NCBI GenBank assembly: GCA_017995075.1 | Contig: JAGOJO010000002.1 | Location: 30,319 to 89,543 of the forward strand | Length of the DNA stretch: 59,225 nt | Reading direction: 5' to 3' | DNA from: Bacteroidia bacterium | GTDB lineage: Bacteria; Bacteroidota; Bacteroidia; AKYH767-A; OLB10 | Shown: positions 29,098 through 37,925 of the stretch, piece by piece | Position numbering within the stretch: position 1 is the stretch's first letter | Layout: every line of letters begins with the position of its first letter | Notes under the pieces: model-generated | The model's database searches: none | Told to the model about the DNA's origin: nothing | Seen by the model: only the letters and a program-made list of their open reading frames with translations | Position numbers and translations under genes: made by a program

Positions 29098-29976
29098 ATG
29101 GCCACTAAAAAACCAATTTCAAAGACCAAGAAGGCCGCGGCTAAAAAGCCTGCATCTAAGGCTCCAGCCAAAAAAACTGTTAAAAAGGCAGCTGCCCCTA
29201 AGAAATCTGCTGCTAAAGCTCCGGCAAAGAAGGTGGCTCCTAAAAAAGCGGCTCCTAAAAAACCTGTGGCTAAAAAAGAAGTAAAGAAAGCAGCTCCTAA
29301 AAAAGCAGCTTCTGCTCCAAAAAAGGCAGCAACTAAACCGGTAGCTAAAACCGCCGTGAAAAAGGCAGTAGCTAAACCGGCTCCGAAAGCAGCTCCTGCT
29401 CCAAAGGCAAAAAAACCTGCTCCGGCTCCCAAAGCAACGAAACCAGCTCCGGCTCCAAAGGTGGCACCTGTTAAAGCAGTAGCACCGAAACCGACGCCAG
29501 TTTCTAAGTCAGCTCCGGCAGTGAAAATACCTGTAGTACCAAGTGTGACGAACGAGAATAAAATGACAGAGAAAAAAGAGGAAGTAAAAAAAGTAGTGAC
29601 CAATTTGCGTTATAGTGATGCGGATCTGGCTGAATTCAAAACCCTGATTCAGGGTAAGCTGGTGGATGCCCGCGAAGAGTTGATTAACCTGCAGGCTCAG
29701 ATTCTGAATGCTAATGAGAATGGTACCGATGATACTGGTGCCTCTTTCAAAATGCTGGAAGATGGTTCTGAAACGCTGGCAAAAGAAGAGGCCGCTAACC
29801 TGGCAGCTCGTCAGAAGAAGTTTATCGAGCAGCTCGAGGCAGCATTACTTCGTATTGAAAACAAAACGTATGGAATCTGCCGTGTTACCGGTCAGTTGAT
29901 TCCTAAAGAGCGCTTACGTGCTGTTCCCGGAACAACGCAGAGTATGGAAGCCAAGCTGAAGCAATACAAAGATTAA
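29098..29976 (+). CDS. DksA/TraR-family protein with a ~150-aa histone-H1-like Lys/Ala/Pro-rich N-terminal extension
   Basis: The N-terminal 150 aa are about 80% K/A/P repeats (KKAAPKK, PAPKA). The C-terminus has a coiled coil plus YGICRVTGQLIPKERLRAVPGTTQS (a DksA finger with one Cys retained). The start is 1 nt after the ileS stop. Confidence 0.8.
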   Translation: MATKKPISKTKKAAAKKPASKAPAKKTVKKAAAPKKSAAKAPAKKVAPKKAAPKKPVAKKEVKKAAPKKAASAPKKAATKPVAKTAVKKAVAKPAPKAAPAPKAKKPAPAPKATKPAPAPKVAPVKAVAPKPTPVSKSAPAVKIPVVPSVTNENKMTEKKEEVKKVVTNLRYSDADLAEFKTLIQGKLVDAREELINLQAQILNANENGTDDTGASFKMLEDGSETLAKEEAANLAARQKKFIEQLEAALLRIENKTYGICRVTGQLIPKERLRAVPGTTQSMEAKLKQYKD

Positions 29977-30769: not shown

Positions 30770-30782
30770 AAGTTTGCTGTTA

Positions 30783-32567
30783 TTAATGTACTTCGACGGC
30801 GCTTAATTCGTGTTTGTAGTTTTCCATTTCCTGCGTGAATCGTAGCCGTTCTTCTTCAGTGTTGAAGTTGATGTTACGGGATATCGTCAGGTAGTAATTG
30901 ATACCACTCAGGAGATTATCGCGGAAGTTGTCGAGGTATTTCTGCTCTTTCGGGAGGATAACTAAGGAGGCACATTTCTTTTCCAGATAGTCGACGTAGA
31001 GCTTCAATTCGTTGATGAATAAATGAGGGCGTGGTTTATCAATGAGTTGCTTTCGTCCGTAGATATGATCTACCATATCCTGTAGGCTTGAAACTTTGTC
31101 GAAGAAATATAAATTAGGGCCGGGACAAATACTGACATGGTGGAGATTGTGTGGAACAGGGACTTCGTTCTTCATGAATACAGATGCTGAAAGTCCTTCG
31201 CATAAACATTCTTTTTCTGTGATCAATGCCGCTTGTTGCTCATATTCGGCAGATGAAAGATTTGTAGATTGTAGTTCCTTTAGTTTTTTGAATTGATATT
31301 CTCTGGACGAAACACAGATCGGAACAGTAGTAAACTCTTTGTTGGAGGAGAGGAATTTTTTGTAGCAGGGACTGCCCGGACGATTTTCTTCGATACGACG
31401 GTTTAAATTCTCTTCTGAGGAGGTGTGACGGAAGTTGTTAAACGGAACACCAAGTGGTGATTTGTCGCTGAGGTAATAATCTTCAGCAGTGGCGTTGCAT
31501 AGTTTTTCCATCGTGTCCTTGTCTACGTTGGTAGCTTCAGGCACTAGCAGGAACGGACTTCCCCATCCTGTTGTGTCGAGATTATAATATTCACGTAGAA
31601 ATACATCTTCTGCTGCAGTGCCTAACCCGCCCTGTGCAGTATATCGAATGCTGAACTGAAAATTGTCAGTCGTTAGTTGTAAATTATTCCATGCGTTAAC
31701 ACACGTGGTTTTCAGTTCTTCTTCCAGTTGCTTACGATGCTGTTTGAAATCTTCCAGTATTGGTCCCATCAATAACCCTTCTGTCGGGAATGCGTGTCCA
31801 CCACAATTTAATCCCGATTCAATTCGAAATTCAGAAACCCATATTCCTTTTTTCGCCAATTGCATTCCTTGGATACGTGCCGATCGGAAATCACTTACTT
31901 TAAGAACTATTTCTTTTTGAATACATCCGCTTTCATCTGGAAAGAAATCAGGGAACTCAGGAATATACTGAAAGAGTCGAGGGTTGTATCCTGCTGAAAT
32001 TACTAATGCTGACTGAAGTTTGCTTGTTGCATATCCCCGTAATGCCGATAATGCATTCGAAAATATCTCCGGCATTTCTTCTCCGTTTTCAGTGTAGGCC
32101 GGCTTATCAGCTTTCGCCATTATATTCACATCTATTGTGCCGGTGTAATGTGACTTTTTCAACTCGGCTTCTAATGAGGTTTGTTCCTGCTCCGTTAGTG
32201 ATTGAAAGTCGCCATATTTTTTTACTAATGGGTGTGTGGAAGGCAACAGTGAATAATATTTTGTTAAAGCGGAGCCGGAAGTCATTGAACTGTCCAGCAA
32301 ACTATTAACACGTGTTGTAACAATGGAGTGCAGGAGATTCAGATAGTCTGTAATTCGTTTAGCACGAAAGTCATCTTCAATAACAGGAATTGGAAAGTAA
32401 GTGCGTCCGTCAGTTGGATAGTGAATAACCCGCATCTGCTCTATCAATTCGTCGTCCATAATAGAAACAACTGAATTAATTCCCATGGGTGCAACCTTGA
32501 TGGGTGTGTCAATGGTAAAAGCTAATCCCATCACGGGAATGTGGAATGTATGCGGCTTTGATGACAT
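30783..32567 (-). CDS. Conserved-looking hypothetical protein, 594 aa (possible divergent FMN TIM-barrel oxidoreductase)
   Basis: Long uninterrupted ORF. The motifs IPVMGLAFT, DVNIM, ESGLNCGGH, AQGGLGT and GWGSPFLLVPEA occur in the same order as the nitronate monooxygenase/FabK signature motifs (recalled, not aligned). Confidence 0.7.
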   Translation of the reverse strand: MSSKPHTFHIPVMGLAFTIDTPIKVAPMGINSVVSIMDDELIEQMRVIHYPTDGRTYFPIPVIEDDFRAKRITDYLNLLHSIVTTRVNSLLDSSMTSGSALTKYYSLLPSTHPLVKKYGDFQSLTEQEQTSLEAELKKSHYTGTIDVNIMAKADKPAYTENGEEMPEIFSNALSALRGYATSKLQSALVISAGYNPRLFQYIPEFPDFFPDESGCIQKEIVLKVSDFRSARIQGMQLAKKGIWVSEFRIESGLNCGGHAFPTEGLLMGPILEDFKQHRKQLEEELKTTCVNAWNNLQLTTDNFQFSIRYTAQGGLGTAAEDVFLREYYNLDTTGWGSPFLLVPEATNVDKDTMEKLCNATAEDYYLSDKSPLGVPFNNFRHTSSEENLNRRIEENRPGSPCYKKFLSSNKEFTTVPICVSSREYQFKKLKELQSTNLSSAEYEQQAALITEKECLCEGLSASVFMKNEVPVPHNLHHVSICPGPNLYFFDKVSSLQDMVDHIYGRKQLIDKPRPHLFINELKLYVDYLEKKCASLVILPKEQKYLDNFRDNLLSGINYYLTISRNINFNTEEERLRFTQEMENYKHELSAVEVH

Positions 32568-32643
32568 GGTTTCGGAGCGGACGTTTGTTATTTGTACAAA
32601 TGAATGGAATGGACGAAGGTACGATCATTGAAAATCTCAAAAT

Positions 32644-32657
32644 ATGATGGTTGTCAA
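32644..32657. promoter_or_regulatory. Candidate FNR/CRP-family box ATGATGGTTGTCAA
   Basis: TGA-N6-TCA core. It is similar to the 33521-33534 site and lies 77-90 nt upstream of the 594-aa gene start. Confidence 0.4.
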
Positions 32658-32742
32658 TTGTAAATTACTAAGAAATTATTGTTTTGTGAATATATAAAAG
32701 ATGTAATGTGAAATGGGTTGTGCGAGGTCGAAATGTTTTCGT

Positions 32743-33441
32743 TTATTGCAAGATGTTATTCAAGACTTCTGGTTTTATTATTCGAATTCTTTTTCCTTTT
32801 AATCCGATAACTCCATCAGACTTTAAATCTGCTAGCGTACGAATAAGTGTTTCTATGGCAGTCCCACATAGTGAAGAAAGGTCACCTCTGCTTAATTGAA
32901 TGTTTATTGTTTGATCAACTGGCTCAACTCCAAACTTGGTAAGTAGATTTAGTAAAACAGCTGCAATTCTTTCTTTCACATTTTTGTTTAGAAAATGTGT
33001 TTCGTTTTTTTCATAACGCTGTATTTCACTGTTCATGAATTGAAGTATCTGAAGTGAGAGCCCATTGCTCTTTCTAAACAATCGTTGAAAGAGTTCTTTA
33101 TTTATAAAGCAAACTTCTGTCTTTTCCAATGCTATTGCAGTAGTATCGTGCTGATTTCTGAATAAGGCAGAGCGATACCCTATAATTTCCCCGGCTTTGG
33201 CCAAACGCACAATTTGAGTTCTTTTTTTTGTCGGGATCTCTAATTTTACTTTTCCAACTTCTATTATATAAATGCCAACTGAGTTGTATCCGGTTTTAAA
33301 AATTTCTTCTCCTTTGGTATAAATTTTACGGATTTTGGATTCCTCTATCTGTTGTAAATCTTCGGAGTAAATATCGCAAAATACCGATGAGTATCTCAAT
33401 TTGCAATTGAAACAGTCTTTGTAATTTCCCGTGTAATTCAT
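32743..33441 (-). CDS. Crp/Fnr-family transcriptional regulator with FNR-like Cys cluster
   Basis: Cys10-x2-Cys13-x8-Cys22 plus Cys110 in the context TEVCFINKE, which parallels E. coli FNR SMVCEIPFE (Cys122). It has a cNMP-binding-like beta-roll and a C-terminal HTH with E--IR where FNR has E--SR. Confidence 0.85.
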   Translation of the reverse strand: MNYTGNYKDCFNCKLRYSSVFCDIYSEDLQQIEESKIRKIYTKGEEIFKTGYNSVGIYIIEVGKVKLEIPTKKRTQIVRLAKAGEIIGYRSALFRNQHDTTAIALEKTEVCFINKELFQRLFRKSNGLSLQILQFMNSEIQRYEKNETHFLNKNVKERIAAVLLNLLTKFGVEPVDQTINIQLSRGDLSSLCGTAIETLIRTLADLKSDGVIGLKGKRIRIIKPEVLNNILQ

Positions 33442-33485
33442 GTTTTAGTGAGTATTTCGTTGAATATTTGGGAATGTAGCGGTTA

Positions 33486-33493
33486 CAAAGATA
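33486..33493 (-). promoter_or_regulatory. Bacteroidetes -7 box TATCTTTG for the fnr-like gene
   Basis: Exact TAnnTTTG match on the minus strand, 44 nt upstream of ATG 33441. Confidence 0.4.
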
Positions 33494-33520
33494 CTTTAAT
33501 TTTATCTGCGTTTTAGAAAT

Positions 33521-33534
33521 ATGATATCTGTCAT
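33521..33534. promoter_or_regulatory. Candidate FNR/CRP-family box ATGATATCTGTCAT
   Basis: ATGA-N6-TCAT palindrome. It is centred about 36 nt upstream of the G of a near-consensus -7 box (AATCTTTG, 33557-33564), which puts it near -41/-42 of the haemoglobin-operon promoter. Confidence 0.45.
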
Positions 33535-33597
33535 TTTTTGTGGAAATCCGAATTCTAATCTTTGCGTGCTGACAGAATAATAGAAAAAAGACGATAA

Positions 33598-33981
33598 ATG
33601 GTAAAAGGTGATATCGCAGACTTTGATGAAGTTAAACAGATGGTTGATCGGTTTTATTTTTGCGCGATGAAAGATGACTTGTTGGGGCCTGTGTTTTCAC
33701 AACATTTATCGGTTGGGATGCCGCAACATCTTGAAAAGATGTATAGTTTTTGGCATTCATTGTTGTTTGGTTCAAAAAGTTATAGTGGTCGGCCTTTTCC
33801 ACCACATATTCAACTTCCAATAGAGAAGAAGCATTTCAAAAGGTGGCTAAAGCTTTTTGAAATTGTAGTAGATGAAAGTTTTGTTGGGCCAAAGGCTGAA
33901 GAGGCGAAGAGTCGTGCAAAAGCTATAGCAACAGTATTTGAAGTAAAATTGGAGGGCATTAAAAATAAACATGCTTTTTGA
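33598..33981 (+). CDS. Group III truncated haemoglobin
   Basis: 127 aa. The pattern VDRFYF...DDLLGPVF...FWHSLLFG...YSGRPFPPH...HFKRWLKLF is typical of trHb group III (Campylobacter Ctb-like). Confidence 0.8.
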   Translation: MVKGDIADFDEVKQMVDRFYFCAMKDDLLGPVFSQHLSVGMPQHLEKMYSFWHSLLFGSKSYSGRPFPPHIQLPIEKKHFKRWLKLFEIVVDESFVGPKAEEAKSRAKAIATVFEVKLEGIKNKHAF

Positions 33982-34016
33982 ATTAACGAACGAATTAAAT
34001 CTTAAAAGTAAGTCAT

Positions 34017-34733
34017 ATGAAAACAATAAATGCAGACGATCTTATAGGTGAAATTGTGGCAATAGATTATCGAAAGGCGGCTGTCTTTACGTCGTATGGA
34101 ATCGATTTTTGTTGTCATGGAAATAGGAGTGTGCAAGAGGCATGTGACTCCGCAGGTATATATATAACTGAAGTTTTGACAGAACTAAATAAAGCATTAC
34201 CAATTAGTGAGTCTACAGTTAATATTGAAACTATGCCTATAGGTCAAATTATTGAATATATTAGGAATGTTCATCACAAATATGTAAGACAACAGGTTCC
34301 TGTAATCAAGGAAATGCTATCAAAAGTTGTAAAAGTACATGGACACAATCACCCTGAATTAATTGAAGTTTACGAATTGTTTGATTCTGGAGTTGATGAT
34401 TTACTAATTCATTTGGGAAAGGAGGAACAAATTTTATTTCCCATGATCCTTCGCTTAAGTGAAGTTTCTTTAGATGGTGGAGATATAAGTGAAGTTCCCT
34501 TCAGTCTTGAAGTGCCTATGCATGTTATGAAGAATGAGCATGCCATTGAGGGCGATCGGTATAAACGAATTTCCGATTTGACGTGTAAGTATAATGCTCC
34601 TCAGGAAGCCTGTACAACGTATAAAACCGTTTTTCAGCTTTTGAAGGAGTTTGAAGAGGATTTACATAAACATATTCATCTTGAAAATAATGTTCTGTTT
34701 CCAGCTGCTAGCTTGCTTGAAGAGTCGTTGTAA
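34017..34733 (+). CDS. ric: Iron-sulfur cluster repair di-iron protein (RIC/YtfE/ScdA family)
   Basis: N-terminal ScdA_N motif (YGIDFCCHGNRSV) and a C-terminal hemerythrin-like His/Glu motifs (HHKYV, HIHLENNVLFP). Confidence 0.85.
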   Translation: MKTINADDLIGEIVAIDYRKAAVFTSYGIDFCCHGNRSVQEACDSAGIYITEVLTELNKALPISESTVNIETMPIGQIIEYIRNVHHKYVRQQVPVIKEMLSKVVKVHGHNHPELIEVYELFDSGVDDLLIHLGKEEQILFPMILRLSEVSLDGGDISEVPFSLEVPMHVMKNEHAIEGDRYKRISDLTCKYNAPQEACTTYKTVFQLLKEFEEDLHKHIHLENNVLFPAASLLEESL

Positions 34734-34761
34734 ATAAGTATTGTTGTAAGAATTCTGTTTG

Positions 34762-36141
34762 ATGATGGTAAAATCTTCCTGGGCTGAGCCCTATAAAATG
34801 AAAATGGTGGAGTTGTTGAAGACAACCACCAAATCACAACGTACCAAAGCGATTCGTGAAGCAGGATATAATACCTTCCTTTTGCGATCGGAGGATGTAT
34901 ATATTGATCTTTTAACTGATAGTGGAACCTCTGCCATGAGCGATGTGCAATGGGCGGGAATGATGCGGGGTGATGAAGCATATGCCGGCAGCCGGAATTA
35001 TTATAATCTGGAAGCAGCAGTAAAAAAACACTATGGCTATAAATATCTGGTGCCAACTCATCAGGGACGCGGGGCTGAAAATATCCTGTCAAAAGTGCTT
35101 ATCAAAAGAGGAGATATCGTACCTGGTAATATGTATTTTACGACGACACGACTCCATCAGGAACTGGCCGGAGGTACATTTGCAGATATCATCATCGATG
35201 AAGCACATGATCCGAAAAGTCTGCATCCGTTTAAAGGTGATGTGGATTTGCAAAAGCTCGATAAGCTCGTAAAGAAATACGGGGCTAAACGAATTCCTTA
35301 TATAACGATAGGCACAACCGTAAACATGGCCGGTGGACAACCCATAAGCATGAAGAATATGAAAGCCTTGCGTGCCTATACGAAGAAACATAAACTACGG
35401 ATTATTCTTGATATGACCCGTGTGGCGGAGAATGCCTATTTCATTCAACAGCGGGAAGAAGGTTATCAGCGAAAATCTGTCCATCAGATTGTGTTGGAAC
35501 TATGTTCACTTACTGATGGCGCTACGATGAGTGCCAAGAAAGATGCCTTGGTGAATATTGGCGGCTTCATGGCAACCAATGAATGGGACGTGTTTGAAGA
35601 AGCACGTAATCTGGTAGTGGTATATGAAGGATTGCATACCTATGGTGGATTAGCAGGACGCGATATGGAGGCGATGGCGATTGGTATTGCAGAGAGTGTG
35701 AATGACAGACACCAGCAGGCACGGATTGGACAGGTAGAATATCTCGGTGAAAAAATGATGGAGTATGGTATTCCGATTGTTTTGCCGATTGGTGGACATG
35801 GAATTTTTGTAGATGCTAAAGCATTCCTGCCACACTTAAATCAGGATCAGTTTCCGGCACAGGTGCTCGCAGCAGAAATATTCATCGATTCAGGAGTGCG
35901 TACAATGGAGAGAGGTATTGTTTCCGCCGGACGCAAAGCCAATGGTGAAAATTATTATCCGAAACTCGAATTGGTTCGTTTTACAATTCCACGAAGAGTA
36001 TATACGCAAGCACACATGGATGTGATTGCAGAGAGTACGGCCCGTGTACTCGATCGTGCAGCAAAAATCAAAGGATTGAAAATGGTATATGAACCGAAAT
36101 ACCTGCGCTTTTTTCAAGCAAGATTTGAACCTTTAAAATGA
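34762..36141 (+). CDS. PLP-dependent beta-eliminating lyase, tyrosine phenol-lyase-like (tryptophanase/TPL family)
   Basis: AEPYKMKMVE, DLLTDSGTSAMS, GNMYFTTTR, the PLP lysine in MSAKKDALVNIGGF, YGGLAGRDMEAMAIG, and a C-terminal YEPKYLRFFQARF, which resembles TPL (LRFFTARF) more than E. coli TnaA (LRHFTAKL) as I recall them. Confidence 0.85.
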   Translation: MMVKSSWAEPYKMKMVELLKTTTKSQRTKAIREAGYNTFLLRSEDVYIDLLTDSGTSAMSDVQWAGMMRGDEAYAGSRNYYNLEAAVKKHYGYKYLVPTHQGRGAENILSKVLIKRGDIVPGNMYFTTTRLHQELAGGTFADIIIDEAHDPKSLHPFKGDVDLQKLDKLVKKYGAKRIPYITIGTTVNMAGGQPISMKNMKALRAYTKKHKLRIILDMTRVAENAYFIQQREEGYQRKSVHQIVLELCSLTDGATMSAKKDALVNIGGFMATNEWDVFEEARNLVVVYEGLHTYGGLAGRDMEAMAIGIAESVNDRHQQARIGQVEYLGEKMMEYGIPIVLPIGGHGIFVDAKAFLPHLNQDQFPAQVLAAEIFIDSGVRTMERGIVSAGRKANGENYYPKLELVRFTIPRRVYTQAHMDVIAESTARVLDRAAKIKGLKMVYEPKYLRFFQARFEPLK

Positions 36142-36542
36142 TGTCTGGTAGATTAAGTACATATATTTTAATTTCCATGTGCTTGGTTTTTTTCTGCTAT
36201 AGTGTGCAATTTTATTTGCCGGGCGTTAACCAGAATTTTGTTGCCGGGGAAGGAAGACTCGTATGGCAAAGGTATAATTGTCAGTCATGTCATCAATTGT
36301 ATGGGCTAGGTGGATACCTCGGTCCGGATCTGACTAATTTAACATCATCACCGGGTAAAGATGAAAACTATCTTCGGGCAATGATATTATCTGGTTCAGA
36401 TCAGATGCCTTCATTTAAATTGAATGATGAAGAAATGAAGTTGTTAATTCAGTTTTTATATGATGTTGATAAATCTGGTGATGGTCGAAATTTTACTTTT
36501 GATGTAAATTGGGATGGAATGATTATTGAATCTTATGAATAG
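36138..36542 (+). CDS. Membrane-anchored mono-haem cytochrome c (NorC/CcoO-like partner)
   Basis: N-terminal TM helix and a single CQSCH haem-binding motif. Its ATG overlaps the lyase stop (ATGA). Confidence 0.75.
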   Translation: MMSGRLSTYILISMCLVFFCYSVQFYLPGVNQNFVAGEGRLVWQRYNCQSCHQLYGLGGYLGPDLTNLTSSPGKDENYLRAMILSGSDQMPSFKLNDEEMKLLIQFLYDVDKSGDGRNFTFDVNWDGMIIESYE

Positions 36543-37857
36543 ATCTGTTGTTTGGAAGGGGTTTGCAATATTCTCTTTAGTTGTGCTTTTCTTGGGACTC
36601 AACTTTGGTGTTCTGGCAGCTCACTCATATACAGGTCGTGGTAATTTCGGGGAATTACTTAGCTTTATAAATTTACGTCCATTGCATGTCACGTCAGTAA
36701 TGCTTTGGATACTCGTCGGGGCAACAGCAGTTCTTTATTGGGTGATGAATGAATTGCATCTAAAGTACAAACCGCTTTTGGCATATCTCCAGCTGTTTTG
36801 TTGGATCGTCGCTTACGTAGGTATTTTTATTTCTTATCTTAAAGGGCAATTTGGTGGCAGAGAATATTGGGAGTTTCCGCCTGTCTGGTCACTGCCGATT
36901 TTTATTGCTTGGTGTATTATGGTATATCAATATTTTTCTACACTACAACATACAGACAAGTCTCCAGTTTATATTTGGATGTTTGGGACAGGATTAACTT
37001 TTTTCGTATTTGTTTTCTTGGAAAACTACCTCTGGGCATTTGATGTTTTTCGAGCAGATTTTGTGAAGGATACAACTTTACAATGGAAAGTGAATGGATC
37101 GCTTGTTGGTTGCTGGAATCAGATGATTTATGGGGCTTCTTTTTTTCTTATGGAAAAAATAAGTGGAAATAAAAGTATTGCTCGATCTAAAATGTCTTAT
37201 TTTATGTATTTCCTTGGCTTGTTTAACCTGATGTTTAATTGGAGCCATCACATATATACCTTACCAACTGAAAAATATATTAGGTATGTTGGATATTTGG
37301 TAAGTATGACAGAATGGGTGATTTTCTTGAGGATTATATGGACTTTCAGATCAACTATTGAATCAGTAAGGAAACATCGTAATTTGATAAGTTACAGGTT
37401 TCTAATTGCTGCAGATGTTTGGGTTTTTCTGAATCTTTTCATGGCTTTGCTGATGTCGGTTCCTGCCATCAACCTTTATACTCATGGTACCCATATTACT
37501 GTTGCTCATGCTATGGGCACTACAATTGGGATCAATTCTATGATTTTATTAGGAGTAATGGCCTTTGCATTAAATTGTAATGAATTTTCACTAAAACAGA
37601 CACGACTCATTTCTTACTCTTTCTGGTTATTGCAGTTTTCATTGCTCTTTTTTTGGTTTAGTCTCATTTATGCTGGAATTGTTAAAACTATGCTTCAGGT
37701 CAGGCTTCCTCAAGTACCACATAGATATATAATGAAACAAAGTGTAGCAATCTTTAAAGTCTTTAATTATAGTGGGTCTATTATGTTGATAGGATTTACA
37801 GTTGTTTTGTTTGTTTTTATAAAAAGGATGTCTGTCTCAGAGCCGAAATCCTCTTGA
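36535..37857 (+). CDS. Haem-copper oxidoreductase superfamily subunit I-like protein (NorB-size, atypical ligand set)
   Basis: About 12 TM helices, 440 aa. It has a helix-VII-type NWSHHIYT motif and a His cluster THGTHITVAHAMG. Its start overlaps the cytochrome c gene by 8 nt; an alternative TTG start lies at 36526. Confidence 0.7.
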   Translation: MNRSVVWKGFAIFSLVVLFLGLNFGVLAAHSYTGRGNFGELLSFINLRPLHVTSVMLWILVGATAVLYWVMNELHLKYKPLLAYLQLFCWIVAYVGIFISYLKGQFGGREYWEFPPVWSLPIFIAWCIMVYQYFSTLQHTDKSPVYIWMFGTGLTFFVFVFLENYLWAFDVFRADFVKDTTLQWKVNGSLVGCWNQMIYGASFFLMEKISGNKSIARSKMSYFMYFLGLFNLMFNWSHHIYTLPTEKYIRYVGYLVSMTEWVIFLRIIWTFRSTIESVRKHRNLISYRFLIAADVWVFLNLFMALLMSVPAINLYTHGTHITVAHAMGTTIGINSMILLGVMAFALNCNEFSLKQTRLISYSFWLLQFSLLFFWFSLIYAGIVKTMLQVRLPQVPHRYIMKQSVAIFKVFNYSGSIMLIGFTVVLFVFIKRMSVSEPKSS

Positions 37858-37925
37858 ATCACAACTAATGACCTTTAGGATTAGTTTTTTAAAAGAACGA
37901 TATGAAAAGCGATATATGGATGCTA

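What the first reader, a model, noticed from the sequence alone, without database searches (positions are those of the whole stretch)
30783..37857. Putative FNR-controlled nitrosative/low-oxygen stress island with unusual members
The minus arm encodes an Fnr-like regulator (Cys10, 13, 22, 110) followed by a 594-aa unknown protein. The divergent plus arm encodes a group III truncated haemoglobin, RIC (di-iron Fe-S repair), a TPL-like lyase, a cytochrome c and a NorB-like oxidoreductase. Intergenic gaps in the plus arm are at most 35 nt, and two junctions overlap (ATGA at 36138-41, and 8 nt at 36535-42). Haemoglobin, RIC and NOR are each established NO-detoxification or repair functions. A Crp/Fnr regulator controlling a group III trHb has a precedent in Campylobacter NssR-Ctb. 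The combination with a beta-eliminating lyase and the 594-aa protein is not a module I know to be described.
Basis: partly seen in the sequence, partly recalled or inferred. Interest (0 to 1): 0.65.

Follow-up and report, generated by a model that had tools for sequence, protein, structure and literature searches.

The report
FNR-type nitrogen-oxide island with tyrosine lyase
This is a real, insertable gene island in a soil/water Bacteroidota genome that pairs nitric-oxide protection genes with an unusual, uncharacterised nitric-oxide-reductase-like membrane enzyme. Its two "odd" members, a tyrosine phenol-lyase and a large unnamed flavoprotein, turn out to be regular companions of nitrogen-oxide-respiration genes in hundreds of related species.

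Summary

**Island.** It sits between lspA and a GT9 gene. Four same-genus genomes without it have those two genes abutting.

**Regulation.** The regulator has FNR-like cysteines. A rTGAT-N4-rTCAy box lies exactly 36.5 nt upstream of a Bacteroidota -7 element in all five promoters compared, across three species. This supports FNR-type control in silico only.

**Conserved linkage.** Linkage is strong for the core but weak for the regulator and haemoglobin. Among 80 species loci:
- the NorC-like cytochrome c is adjacent in 79;
- the lyase is present in 55, and is the immediately preceding gene for 40 of 82 enzyme copies;
- the 594-aa protein is present in 44, RIC in 32, an Rrf2 regulator in 35, a Crp/Fnr regulator in 19, and trHb in 9.

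**The NorB-like enzyme.** It belongs to a cNOR-sister family with invariant substitutions: helix VI His to Asn, the FeB Glu to Val, and HxH to HxM.

**Link to N2O respiration.** Carriers have clade II NosZ in 45 of 51 genomes, against 33% background. The module often lies beside nos operons.

**The 594-aa protein.** It has a FabX/nitronate-monooxygenase fold.

**Best reading.** This is an NO-handling accessory of N2O-respiring Bacteroidota. The roles of the lyase and the flavoprotein are unknown.

The parts
30770..37925 (.). Island insert between the lspA stop (30769) and the GT9 stop (37926). It has lower G+C than its flanks.
   Evidence: G+C is 0.36-0.42 against 0.44-0.47 in the flanks. Same-genus genomes L152-L155 have dksA-lspA directly next to GT9-rimP. 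L001, L056, G462 and G463 carry island variants at the same site.
30783..32567 (-). 594-aa soluble protein (U594). It belongs to an unnamed FabX/FabK/nitronate-monooxygenase-fold family, a putative FMN enzyme with a Cys-rich C-terminal part.
   Evidence: No Pfam or NCBIfam hit. AF2 model pLDDT 88, pTM 0.90. Best folds are H. pylori FabX, the DfnA enoyl reductase and NMO 5lsm. Invariant residues are C255 (in NCGGH), C401, C418, C454, C456 and C481.
32614..32621 (-). Candidate -7 promoter element (TACCTTCG) of the 594-aa gene.
   Evidence: Its last G lies 36.5 nt from the centre of the box at 32644-32657, the same spacing as in the other four promoters. This was read from the sequence printed.
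32644..32657 (.). FNR-type box ATGATGGTTGTCAA upstream of the 594-aa gene.
   Evidence: The orthologous L056 promoter has ATGATGATCATCAC at the same distance from TAATTTTG.
32743..33441 (-). Crp/Fnr-family regulator with C10-x2-C13-x8-C22 plus C111, and the recognition helix TAIETLIR.
   Evidence: Pfam cNMP_binding plus HTH_Crp_2; the best NCBIfam model is Fnr, but below its cut-off. The cysteines and the helix are conserved in the L001 orthologue.
33521..33534 (.). FNR-type box ATGATATCTGTCAT in the divergent promoter region.
   Evidence: Conserved as ATGATATTGATCAT in L056 and GTGATGAGGATCAT in L001. In each case the centre lies 36.5 nt upstream of the last G of the -7 element, while the distance to the ATG varies from 70 to 116 nt.
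33556..33564 (+). Bacteroidota-type -7 promoter element (TAATCTTTG) of the plus-arm operon.
   Evidence: The TAnnTTTG consensus is cited from established knowledge of Bacteroidota promoters.
33598..33981 (+). Group III truncated haemoglobin (Ctb-like).
   Evidence: Pfam Bac_globin. The only PDB hit is C. jejuni Ctb 2ig3, E 8e-12. The aligned Tyr in the FY motif, the His in the EH/QH motif, the Trp in WLKLF and the His in the H-x-x-LP motif are kept.
34017..34733 (+). RIC/YtfE/ScdA di-iron Fe-S repair protein.
   Evidence: TIGR03652 at 228.4 bits against a cut-off of 204.7; ScdA_N plus Hemerythrin domains.
34762..36141 (+). Tyrosine phenol-lyase.
   Evidence: TIGR02618 at 719.8 bits against a cut-off of 720.7. 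The best PDB hit is the Erwinia TPL chain 1c7g at 605 bits, well above tryptophanases at 403-454 bits. The equivalents of Tyr71, Arg100, Thr124, the KK PLP-lysine motif, Arg381 and Phe448/449 are kept.
36138..36542 (+). NorC-like membrane-anchored monohaem cytochrome c (CQSCH, with Met in QMPSF).
   Evidence: The best PDB hits are NorC chains 3o0r_C and 4xyd_B, E 3e-8. It lies directly upstream of the HCO in 79 of 80 loci.
36535..37857 (+). NorB-like haem-copper-superfamily subunit I of a cNOR-sister family with an altered active site.
   Evidence: COX1 3e-29. Best PDB sequence hits are NorB 4xyd and 3o0r. The AF2 model matches NorB at TM 0.80-0.82 and cbb3 CcoN at about 0.84. Invariant residues in 121 sequences are H54, E113, N190, N198, H241, H242, E263, H328 and M330.

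Best explanation
This is a variable genomic island inserted between lspA and a GT9 gene.

**Regulation (inferred).** The island encodes an FNR-type regulator, probably carrying an O2/NO-labile [4Fe-4S] cluster. The regulator would activate two class-II-type promoters through rTGAT-N4-rTCAy boxes. One promoter drives the operon trHb-RIC-TPL-norC-like-norB-like. The other drives the 594-aa flavoprotein gene.

**Function of the island (inferred).** It is the NO-handling accessory of a clade II NosZ, N2O-respiring and mostly non-denitrifying Bacteroidota lifestyle.
- The Ctb-like globin and RIC protect and repair.
- The cytochrome-c-dependent NorCB-like enzyme most likely reduces exogenous or neighbour-derived NO to N2O, which NosZ then consumes.

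**The two conserved companions.**
- The tyrosine phenol-lyase is co-expressed and often translationally coupled. Its most economical role is an Fe-S-independent supply of pyruvate and ammonium from tyrosine during anoxic, NO-exposed growth.
- The FabX/NMO-fold flavoprotein is a co-regulated FMN/(Fe-S) oxidoreductase of unknown substrate.

**Shown versus inferred.**
- Shown: gene identities, the island's insertion, box conservation and spacing, conserved linkage, co-occurrence with NosZ, and the altered active site.
- Inferred: the sensing mode, NO reductase chemistry, and the roles of the lyase and the flavoprotein.
For: **Gene identities:**

**Island and empty site:**

**Regulator and boxes:**
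- The FNR-like Cys pattern and the ETLIR helix are conserved in L001.
- Boxes are conserved in three species.
- In five promoters the box centre lies exactly 36.5 nt from the last G of a TAnnTTTG-like element, although the leader lengths differ.

**Linkage in 80 species loci:**
- cytochrome c 79, TPL 55, U594 44, RIC 32.
- TPL-cytc-HCO is directly contiguous for 40 of 82 HCO copies. The gap is at most 33 nt in 38 of those, and a 4-nt overlap occurs in 12.

**NO-type context elsewhere:** Rrf2 regulators with an invariant Cx6Cx5C motif occur in 35 loci, and RIC in 30-32.

**N-oxide respiration context:**
- Clade II NosZ is over its cut-off in 45 of 51 carrier genomes, including the window's own, against 132-136 of 401 in the phylum sample.
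- nos genes lie within 10 kb of the HCO in 14 of 80 loci.
- A homologue of the fasciclin-domain protein encoded in the window genome's own nos cluster lies within 10 kb in 32 of 80 loci.
- G139 has nosZ...DFY-RIC-norC-like-HCO in one string.
- G104 has Rrf2-cytc-nosZBLDFY-hemN-PPDK-ctaA-RIC-U594-TPL.
- U594 lies within 15 kb of nosZ in 21 genomes.

**NO is probably external:** NirK is present in only 8-12 of 51 carriers and was not found in the window's genome.

**HCO features kept from cNOR:**
- the NorC partner;
- the helix II His;
- the HH pair;
- the haem b3 His;
- the GREYWE glutamates, equivalent to the haem-bridging Ca2+ and proton-entry Glu135/138;
- the Glu280 equivalent.
Against: - Two of the four FeB ligands of cNOR are replaced in every family member: His207 to Asn190 and Glu211 to Val194. 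Glu215 is also replaced by Asn, and the second haem b His by Met. From established mutagenesis knowledge of cNOR, the FeB glutamate is needed for activity, so ordinary NOR chemistry is not assured.
- The regulator and the globin are linked to the module only in close relatives.
- No convincing wider regulon was found for the box.
- TPL and U594 are far more widespread than the HCO (about 74 and 143 of 400 genomes against 5). Their adjacency could therefore reflect co-regulation rather than a shared pathway.
- The proposed role for TPL is conjecture.
- The 80 loci are the nearest of at least 590, so linkage frequencies apply to that subclade. In five more distant carriers TPL lies elsewhere in the genome or is absent.
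- The co-occurrence tests ignore phylogeny.
Confidence: 0.5

Rival explanations
1. The island is a plain nitrosative and low-oxygen stress (detoxification) island. Globin, RIC and the NOR-like enzyme only detoxify NO. The lyase and the 594-aa protein are passengers that share a promoter for unrelated reasons.
For: Ctb-like globin, RIC and an FNR-type regulator are classic stress genes. The window's genome shows no nitrite reductase. TPL and U594 occur widely without the HCO, and U594 contexts are variable.
Against: The tight and often overlapping TPL-cytc junction recurs in 40 of 82 copies across several families. U594 and TPL co-occur (odds ratio 5.6) and sit at the ends of nos operons. Carriers have NosZ in 88% of cases. 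Passengers would not be retained so widely.
Confidence: 0.2
2. The NorCB-like enzyme is not an NO reductase but a membrane-bound N2O reductase. This would be the sulfide- and acetylene-insensitive activity reported for Flexibacter canadensis, which Murali et al. 2024 tentatively assigned to a cNOR-related HCO family.
For: PMC11214002 describes an uncharacterised family 'closely related to cNOR' as a putative N2O reductase. The window's family is cNOR's nearest relative by sequence and fold, was found in Bacteroidota (named records, apart from a few differently labelled MAGs), has a non-canonical active site, and lies beside nos genes.
Against: I could not verify that the two families are the same, because no supplements are held. 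45 of 51 carriers already have NosZ, which makes a second N2O reductase less needed. RIC and NO-type regulators next to it point to NO.
Confidence: 0.12
3. The lyase, the flavoprotein and the HCO form one chemical pathway for nitrated or nitrosated aromatics or thiols. One version: the lyase cleaves 3-nitrotyrosine or S-nitrosocysteine, the NMO-fold enzyme removes the nitro group, and the released N-oxide is reduced at the membrane. A second version: phenol from the lyase acts at the ligand-depleted HCO site.
For: Translational coupling of TPL to the cytochrome c. U594 has the nitronate-monooxygenase/FabX fold. U594 and TPL co-occur and are adjacent with or without the HCO. The HCO lacks exactly the helix VI His that carries the Tyr cross-link in oxygen reductases (plus established HCO knowledge).
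Against: There is no direct evidence. The tyrosine-specificity residues are fully canonical. TPL is present in many genomes without the HCO or NosZ. PPDK next to U594-TPL in G104 fits simple pyruvate metabolism.
Confidence: 0.1
4. The HCO is an NO-dismutase-like or otherwise non-reductive enzyme, by analogy with the qNOR-derived NOD family, in which a metal-ligating His is also replaced by Asn.
For: [quoted passage not shown] The window's family shows His to Asn and two Glu replacements.
Against: NOD lacks an electron entry site. This family keeps a dedicated haem c subunit in 79 of 80 loci and keeps the low-spin haem ligands (His/Met). That argues for a reductase fed with electrons.
Confidence: 0.05

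Closest known systems
cNOR (NorCB) of denitrifiers, e.g. P. aeruginosa 3o0r and R. denitrificans 4xyd
   Same: Two-gene norC-norB order with overlapping genes. A membrane-anchored monohaem cytochrome c. A 12-helix subunit I of about 440-450 aa. cNOR is the best sequence and fold match. The helix II His, the HH pair, the haem b3 His, the GRExxE glutamates and the Glu280 equivalent are conserved.
   Different: Helix VI His is replaced by Asn, the FeB Glu211 by Val, Glu215 by Asn and haem b His349 by Met in all members. No norQ/norD-type genes are in the island. Most carriers lack a nitrite reductase. The gene is preceded by a tyrosine phenol-lyase.
Putative 'N2O red' HCO family of Murali et al., PNAS 2024 (PMC11214002)
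   Same: It is described as an uncharacterised HCO family closely related to cNOR, and is linked by the authors to a Bacteroidota organism (Flexibacter canadensis).
   Different: Identity with the window's family could not be checked. The paper gives no neighbourhood, lyase or flavoprotein link in the text held. My data show that NosZ is present in most carriers.
Campylobacter NssR-Ctb/Cgb and E. coli FNR/NsrR regulons (hmp, ytfE/RIC, norVW)
   Same: A Crp/Fnr-family regulator sits beside a group III truncated haemoglobin. RIC is a co-regulated repair protein. A palindromic TGA-N6-TCA-type box lies near -41.5.
   Different: This regulator carries FNR-type cysteines, which NssR does not (established knowledge). 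The promoter is a Bacteroidota -7 type. The regulon includes a lyase, a FabX-fold protein and a NorCB-like enzyme.
Clade II nos gene clusters of Bacteroidota
   Same: The island's genes (RIC, U594, TPL, norC-like/HCO, a fasciclin-domain homologue, Rrf2) are found contiguous with nosZ-nosB/L-nosD-nosF-nosY in other species.
   Different: In the window's genome the nos genes lie on another contig (C163), and the module has its own FNR-type regulator.
H. pylori FabX (7e1q), FabK and nitronate monooxygenase
   Same: These are the best structural matches for the 594-aa protein. It has an FMN-type TIM barrel with a GGH-like motif (NCGGH). Its conserved cysteines recall the FabX [4Fe-4S] site.
   Different: No detectable sequence-family membership. 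It is about 230 residues longer, with extra helical domains. The substrate is unknown.

Membership tests
[quoted passage not shown] | Haem-copper-oxidoreductase subunit I fold with 12 transmembrane helices. | tested here: met
   Pfam COX1 3e-29. The AF2 model has pTM 0.86 and matches 3o0r_B and 4xyd_A at TM 0.80-0.82.
[quoted passage not shown] | Six invariant histidines: haem b His60/His349, haem b3 His347, and FeB His207/His258/His259. | tested here: not met
   Only four are kept (H54, H241, H242, H328). His207 is Asn190 and His349 is Met330; the Met is invariant and the Asn at least 95% conserved in 121 sequences.
[quoted passage not shown] | FeB-ligating Glu211 and nearby Glu215. | tested here: not met
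   They align with Val194 and Asn198, both conserved family-wide.
[quoted passage not shown] | Partner NorC: a membrane-anchored monohaem cytochrome c encoded directly upstream. | tested here: met
   Best PDB hits are NorC at 3e-8, with CQSCH and the Met ligand aligned. It is adjacent in 79 of 80 loci.
[quoted passage not shown] | Catalyses 2 NO + 2 e- + 2 H+ -> N2O + H2O. | not testable with these tools
   This needs an enzyme assay.
FNR ([4Fe-4S] O2-sensing Crp/Fnr regulator) | cNMP-binding-like sensor domain plus a C-terminal Crp-type HTH. | tested here: met
   PF00027, PF13545 and PF00325. The best NCBIfam model is Fnr at 88.9 bits, below its cut-off of 228.
FNR ([4Fe-4S] O2-sensing Crp/Fnr regulator) | Three N-terminal Cys plus one central Cys that ligate the cluster. 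| tested here: met
   C10, C13, C22 and C111 are present and conserved in the L001 orthologue. The spacing is Cx2Cx8C, whereas E. coli has Cx2Cx5C. Cluster binding itself was not tested.
FNR ([4Fe-4S] O2-sensing Crp/Fnr regulator) | E--SR recognition helix and a TTGAT-N4-ATCAA box at about -41.5. | tested here: inconclusive
   The helix is ETLIR (Ser replaced by Ile). The boxes are rTGAT-N4-rTCAy, with 2-3 mismatches to the consensus, and the consensus is not enriched in the window. However, position and sequence are conserved in five promoters.
Tyrosine phenol-lyase (TIGR02618) | Score above the equivalog cut-off. | tested here: inconclusive
   719.8 bits against a cut-off of 720.7. It scores clearly above the tryptophanase models.
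Tyrosine phenol-lyase (TIGR02618) | Catalytic and specificity residues Tyr71, Arg100, Thr124, Lys257, Arg381 and Phe448/449 (C. freundii numbering). | tested here: met
   All are aligned and identical in the comparison with 1c7g and 9j3u, which score 602-605 bits.
RIC/YtfE/ScdA di-iron repair protein (TIGR03652) | ScdA_N plus hemerythrin domain, with a score above the cut-off. | tested here: met
   228.4 bits against a cut-off of 204.7.
Group III truncated haemoglobin (Ctb type) | 2-on-2 globin that is closest to Ctb and conserves the haem-pocket Tyr, His, Trp and proximal His. | tested here: met
   The only PDB hit is 2ig3 at 8e-12, and the pocket residues align.
NMO/FabK/FabX FMN TIM-barrel enzymes | The fold. 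| tested here: met
   Foldseek E 6e-9 to 1e-4 against FabX, the DfnA enoyl reductase, the FAS enoyl reductase domain and NMO.
NMO/FabK/FabX FMN TIM-barrel enzymes | Sequence-family membership (Pfam NMO), FMN binding, and for FabX a [4Fe-4S] cluster. | tested here: not met
   No Pfam or NCBIfam hit. A profile search against PDB sequences found nothing. Cofactors cannot be tested here; the conserved cysteines are only suggestive.
'N2O red' HCO family (Murali et al. 2024) | Clade membership in their tree or HMM. | not testable with these tools
   The supplements are not held. Only the verbal description matches.

The most novel reading that the evidence does not exclude
The NorC/NorB-like pair is a new catalytic type of haem-copper-superfamily enzyme. 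Its metal site has two His plus Asn, no Glu, and a His/Met low-spin haem. Its function in N2O-sink Bacteroidota would be tied to tyrosine phenol-lyase and a FabX-fold flavoprotein. Two versions are open. In one, the three form a pathway that turns nitrated or nitrosated amino acids or phenol into substrates for membrane N-oxide reduction. In the other, the enzyme is the long-sought membrane N2O reductase. The lyase-cytochrome coupling would then be mechanistic and not merely regulatory.
Probability: 0.2. Interest if true: 0.85.

Novelty: new variant of a known kind. Interest (0 to 1): 0.6.

Why it matters
Clade II NosZ Bacteroidota are among the main biological sinks of the greenhouse gas N2O in soils, lakes and wastewater plants. 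At least 590 species genomes carry this NorCB-like enzyme. Its active site differs from every characterised NO reductase, and its activity has never been measured.

Whether it makes N2O from NO, consumes N2O, or does something else changes how these organisms are counted in N2O budgets.

The strongly conserved and often translationally coupled tyrosine phenol-lyase, together with the unnamed FabX-fold flavoprotein, give two concrete and testable handles. They also link amino-acid catabolism to N-oxide respiration, a connection that does not appear in the literature I could search.

The fixed 36.5-nt spacing between box and -7 element is a clean in-silico case of class-II-type activation at a Bacteroidota promoter.

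Tried and rejected
- **Canonical FNR box.** TTGAT-N4-ATCAA with up to 2 mismatches is not enriched in the window (62 found against 56.5 expected). Only the U594 box was caught.
- **Sigma-70 promoter and terminator scan.** Uninformative for a Bacteroidota genome.
- **Neighbourhood clustering around U594.** De novo clustering at +/-8 kb in 60 phylum-wide genomes found no conserved neighbour. The flank was too short to reach nosZ. The nosZ link only appeared when genome coordinates were compared.
- **Profile search of the U594 alignment against PDB sequences.** It returned only coiled-coil noise.
- **Supplements of Murali et al.** Not held, so the identity of the HCO family with their 'N2O red' family stays unverified.
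- **Literature searches.** Searches for TPL with NOR or nosZ found nothing relevant. The compost N2O preprint was unrelated.
- **NirS search.** Zero of 51, but the control genomes did not ring either, so the result is not informative.
- **Genome-wide regulon scans for the box.** They gave 19 intergenic sites, and 9 sites genome-wide with the promoter spacing (27 nt to TTTG). These were barely above other spacings, and no recognisable O2/NO genes lay downstream. A wider regulon is unresolved.
- **O2 reductase idea.** I considered and set aside the idea that the HCO is an O2 reductase. There is no helix VI His to carry a His-Tyr cross-link.

Full report
**1. Observation**

- Minus arm: a 594-aa ORF (30783-32567) and a 232-aa Crp/Fnr protein (32743-33441).
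- Plus arm: a 127-aa globin (33598-33981), RIC (34017-34733), a 460-aa beta-eliminating lyase (34759/34762-36141), a 134-aa cytochrome c (36138-36542) and a 440/443-aa haem-copper subunit I (36535/36526-37857).

The plus-arm gaps are 35 nt and 25-28 nt. The lyase and the cytochrome overlap by ATGA. The cytochrome and the HCO overlap by 8 nt if the ATG at 36535 is the start, as in the near-identical 440-aa homologue P0121.

Family searches confirm each label.
- RIC passes its equivalog cut-off.
- The lyase scores 719.8 bits against a cut-off of 720.7 for tyrosine phenol-lyase. Its best PDB hit is the Erwinia TPL chain 1c7g (605 bits, against 403-454 for tryptophanases), with all catalytic and specificity residues kept.
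- The globin's only PDB relative is C. jejuni Ctb.
- The cytochrome's best PDB relatives are NorC chains.
- The HCO's best PDB relatives are NorB chains. Its AF2 model superposes on NorB and cbb3 CcoN at TM 0.8 or better.

The 594-aa protein has no Pfam or NCBIfam match. One correction: the regulator's fourth cysteine is C111.

**2. It is an island**

G+C falls to 0.36-0.42 inside the unit, against 0.44-0.47 in the flanks. The unit is bracketed by ileS-dksA-lspA on one side and GT9-rimP-nusA-infB on the other.

In four same-genus genomes that lack the HCO, dksA-lspA directly abuts GT9-rimP. Other congeners carry the HCO, or RIC plus a U594 fragment, at the same junction. L001 has the island without the 594-aa gene. 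L056 has it with that gene.

The HCO is present in 9 of 19 same-genus genomes and in 17 of 41 genomes of the relatives set (the window's own included). It is present in only 6 of 401 genomes of a phylum-wide sample, again counting the window's own. The content is therefore variable and the site is fixed.

**3. Regulation**

The regulator has C10-x2-C13-x8-C22 plus C111. C111 lies in the ALE-x-T-x-V-C context that matches the central cluster ligand of E. coli FNR; that comparison rests on my own knowledge. The recognition helix reads TAIETLIR. The cysteines and the helix are shared with the L001 orthologue.

The canonical FNR consensus is not enriched in the window. However, both intergenic regions carry a related palindrome:
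- ATGATATCTGTCAT at 33521-33534;
- ATGATGGTTGTCAA at 32644-32657.

The orthologous promoters carry ATGATATTGATCAT (L056), GTGATGAGGATCAT (L001) and ATGATGATCATCAC (L056, 594-aa gene).

In all five promoters the box centre lies exactly 36.5 nt upstream of the last G of a TAnnTTTG-like -7 element. The elements are TAATCTTTG, ACATCTTTG, GAACCTTTG, TAATTTTG and TACCTTCG. The distance to the start codon meanwhile varies from 60 to 116 nt.

If transcription starts a few bases after that element, the box sits near -41 to -43. This is the class II activator position. That last step is inference.

A wider regulon could not be defined. No transcript data could be obtained.

**4. The NorB-like enzyme is not an ordinary NorB**

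The family is large. More than 2,800 proteins were found, and at least 590 GTDB species genomes carry it. The named records are Bacteroidota, apart from a few MAGs with other labels.

In a 121-sequence alignment the conserved cNOR features are:
- the helix II His (H54);
- the helix VII HH pair (H241, H242);
- the haem b3 His (H328);
- the GREYWE glutamates;
- the Glu280 equivalent (E263).

The replaced features are:
- the helix VI metal-ligating His, which is Asn190;
- the FeB-ligating Glu211, which is Val194;
- Glu215, which is Asn198;
- the second haem b His, which is Met330 (HxM in place of HxH).

Two of the four FeB ligands are therefore gone, and the low-spin haem is probably His/Met-ligated.

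Murali et al. (PMC11214002) mention an uncharacterised family 'closely related to cNOR'. [quoted passage not shown] It is probably this family, but I could not verify that.

The putative NO dismutases likewise replace a ligating His with Asn (PMC3413370). They lack an electron entry site, whereas this family keeps a haem c subunit in 79 of 80 loci.

**5.

Around the 80 closest species loci (+/-10 kb) the neighbours are:

| Neighbour | Loci of 80 |
|---|---|
| NorC-like cytochrome c | 79 |
| TPL | 55 |
| 594-aa protein | 44 |
| Rrf2 regulator with invariant Cx6Cx5C | 35 |
| RIC | 30-32 |
| Proline dehydrogenase | 32 |
| Fasciclin-domain protein | 32 |
| Crp/Fnr-family regulator | 19 |
| Truncated globin | 9 |

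TPL is 76-91% identical in most of these loci, while the HCO is only 47-63% identical.

Among the 82 HCO copies with an adjacent cytochrome c:
- TPL-cytc-HCO is directly contiguous for 40;
- nine of those also have the 594-aa gene in front;
- another 8 have 594-cytc-HCO;
- the TPL-cytc gap is at most 33 nt in 38 of the 40, and a 4-nt overlap occurs in 12.

TPL and the 594-aa family are much more widespread than the HCO. In the 400 other genomes of the phylum sample (the window's own set aside), TPL is in about 74, the 594-aa family in 143 and the HCO in 5. The two co-occur with an odds ratio of 5.6.

They are therefore independent enzymes that are repeatedly recruited next to the NorC/NorB-like pair.

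**6. The wider context is N2O respiration**

- Clade II NosZ is over its cut-off in 45 of 51 HCO-carrying genomes, including the window's own. Its nos genes lie on contig C163 in the order nosZ-nosB/L-nosD-fasciclin-nosF. The background is 132-136 of 401 in the phylum sample.
- NirK is present in only 8-12 of 51 carriers. It was not found in the window's genome, which is 80% complete. The NirS result is uninformative.
- nos genes lie within 10 kb of the HCO in 14 of 80 loci.
- G139 reads cytc-nosZ-...-nosDFY-RIC-norC-like-HCO.
- G104 reads Rrf2-cytc-nosZ-nosB-nosL-nosDFY-hemN-PPDK-ctaA-RIC-U594-TPL on one strand.
- The 594-aa gene lies within 15 kb of nosZ in 21 genomes of the sample.

The co-occurrence statistics ignore phylogeny. 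The 80 loci are the nearest relatives of the query, so the frequencies describe that subclade.

**7. The 594-aa protein**

Its AF2 model is confident (pLDDT 88, pTM 0.90). The best matches are H. pylori FabX (an FMN plus [4Fe-4S] acyl-ACP dehydrogenase/isomerase), a trans-AT PKS enoyl reductase, fungal FAS enoyl reductase domains and a nitronate monooxygenase.

The NCGGH motif and five further cysteines are invariant. Sequence profiles do not connect it to any solved structure.

An earlier agent reached the same fold assignment for a relative that sits beside bioB in another lineage. Its substrate remains unknown.

**8. Reading**

The most coherent account is as follows. The island supplies NO handling to an N2O-respiring, mostly non-denitrifying bacterium.
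- An FNR-type sensor switches on the Ctb-like globin, RIC and a cytochrome-c-fed NorCB-like enzyme.
- That enzyme probably converts NO to N2O for NosZ.
- The tyrosine lyase and the FabX-fold flavoprotein are obligate-looking but unexplained companions.
- For the lyase I favour an Fe-S-independent supply of pyruvate and ammonium. PPDK sits beside U594-TPL in G104. This is conjecture.

The altered metal site is real evidence against simple NOR chemistry. It keeps open the N2O-reductase, NOD-like and 'one pathway with the lyase' readings.

Nothing here has been tested at the bench. The decisive experiments are enzyme assays of the NorC/HCO pair, expression and regulator tests, and gene removals.

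Noticed in passing
window 29098-29976 (+): The DksA/TraR-type protein carries a roughly 150-aa N-terminal Lys/Ala/Pro-rich, histone-H1-like extension. In relatives only the C-terminal 43-69% of the protein aligns, so the tail is variable.
   Followed up: no
L141 (G104:C4:249500-268500): One-strand string: Rrf2-cytc-nosZ-nosB-nosL-nosD-nosF-nosY-hemN-PPDK-ctaA-RIC-U594-TPL. Haem biosynthesis genes and pyruvate phosphate dikinase are embedded in a nos cluster.
   Followed up: partly
L146 (own genome contig C163) 4255-4830; 32 of the 80 HCO loci: A fasciclin-domain protein is encoded between nosD and nosF in the window's own nos cluster. A homologue lies near the HCO module in 32 of 80 loci. It is an unexplained nos-associated gene.
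   Followed up: partly
L056 10004-11319 and 7462-7908: In this syntenic island the HCO is split into two ORFs and RIC is shortened. The regulator ORF lacks the first two cysteines. These could be assembly indels or decay of the island; I could not tell which.
   Followed up: no
Own genome C80:18223 and C80:18453: Two FNR-type boxes, the second being ATGATAAATATCAT with the 27-nt spacing to TTTG, lie upstream of a 153-aa protein with no Pfam family. It is a possible extra regulon member.
   Followed up: partly
80 HCO loci, downstream side: Several genes recur near the module: proline dehydrogenase (32 loci, directly downstream of the HCO), NadA (26), NadB (25), QueD/PTPS (19), and MbnP with a MauG-like di-haem peroxidase (17-18). 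Their relation to the module was not examined.
   Followed up: no
G451:C6:38461-39729: The genome that holds L001 has a second, very distant HCO (24% identity to the window's). It may be a canonical oxidase or NOR.
   Followed up: no
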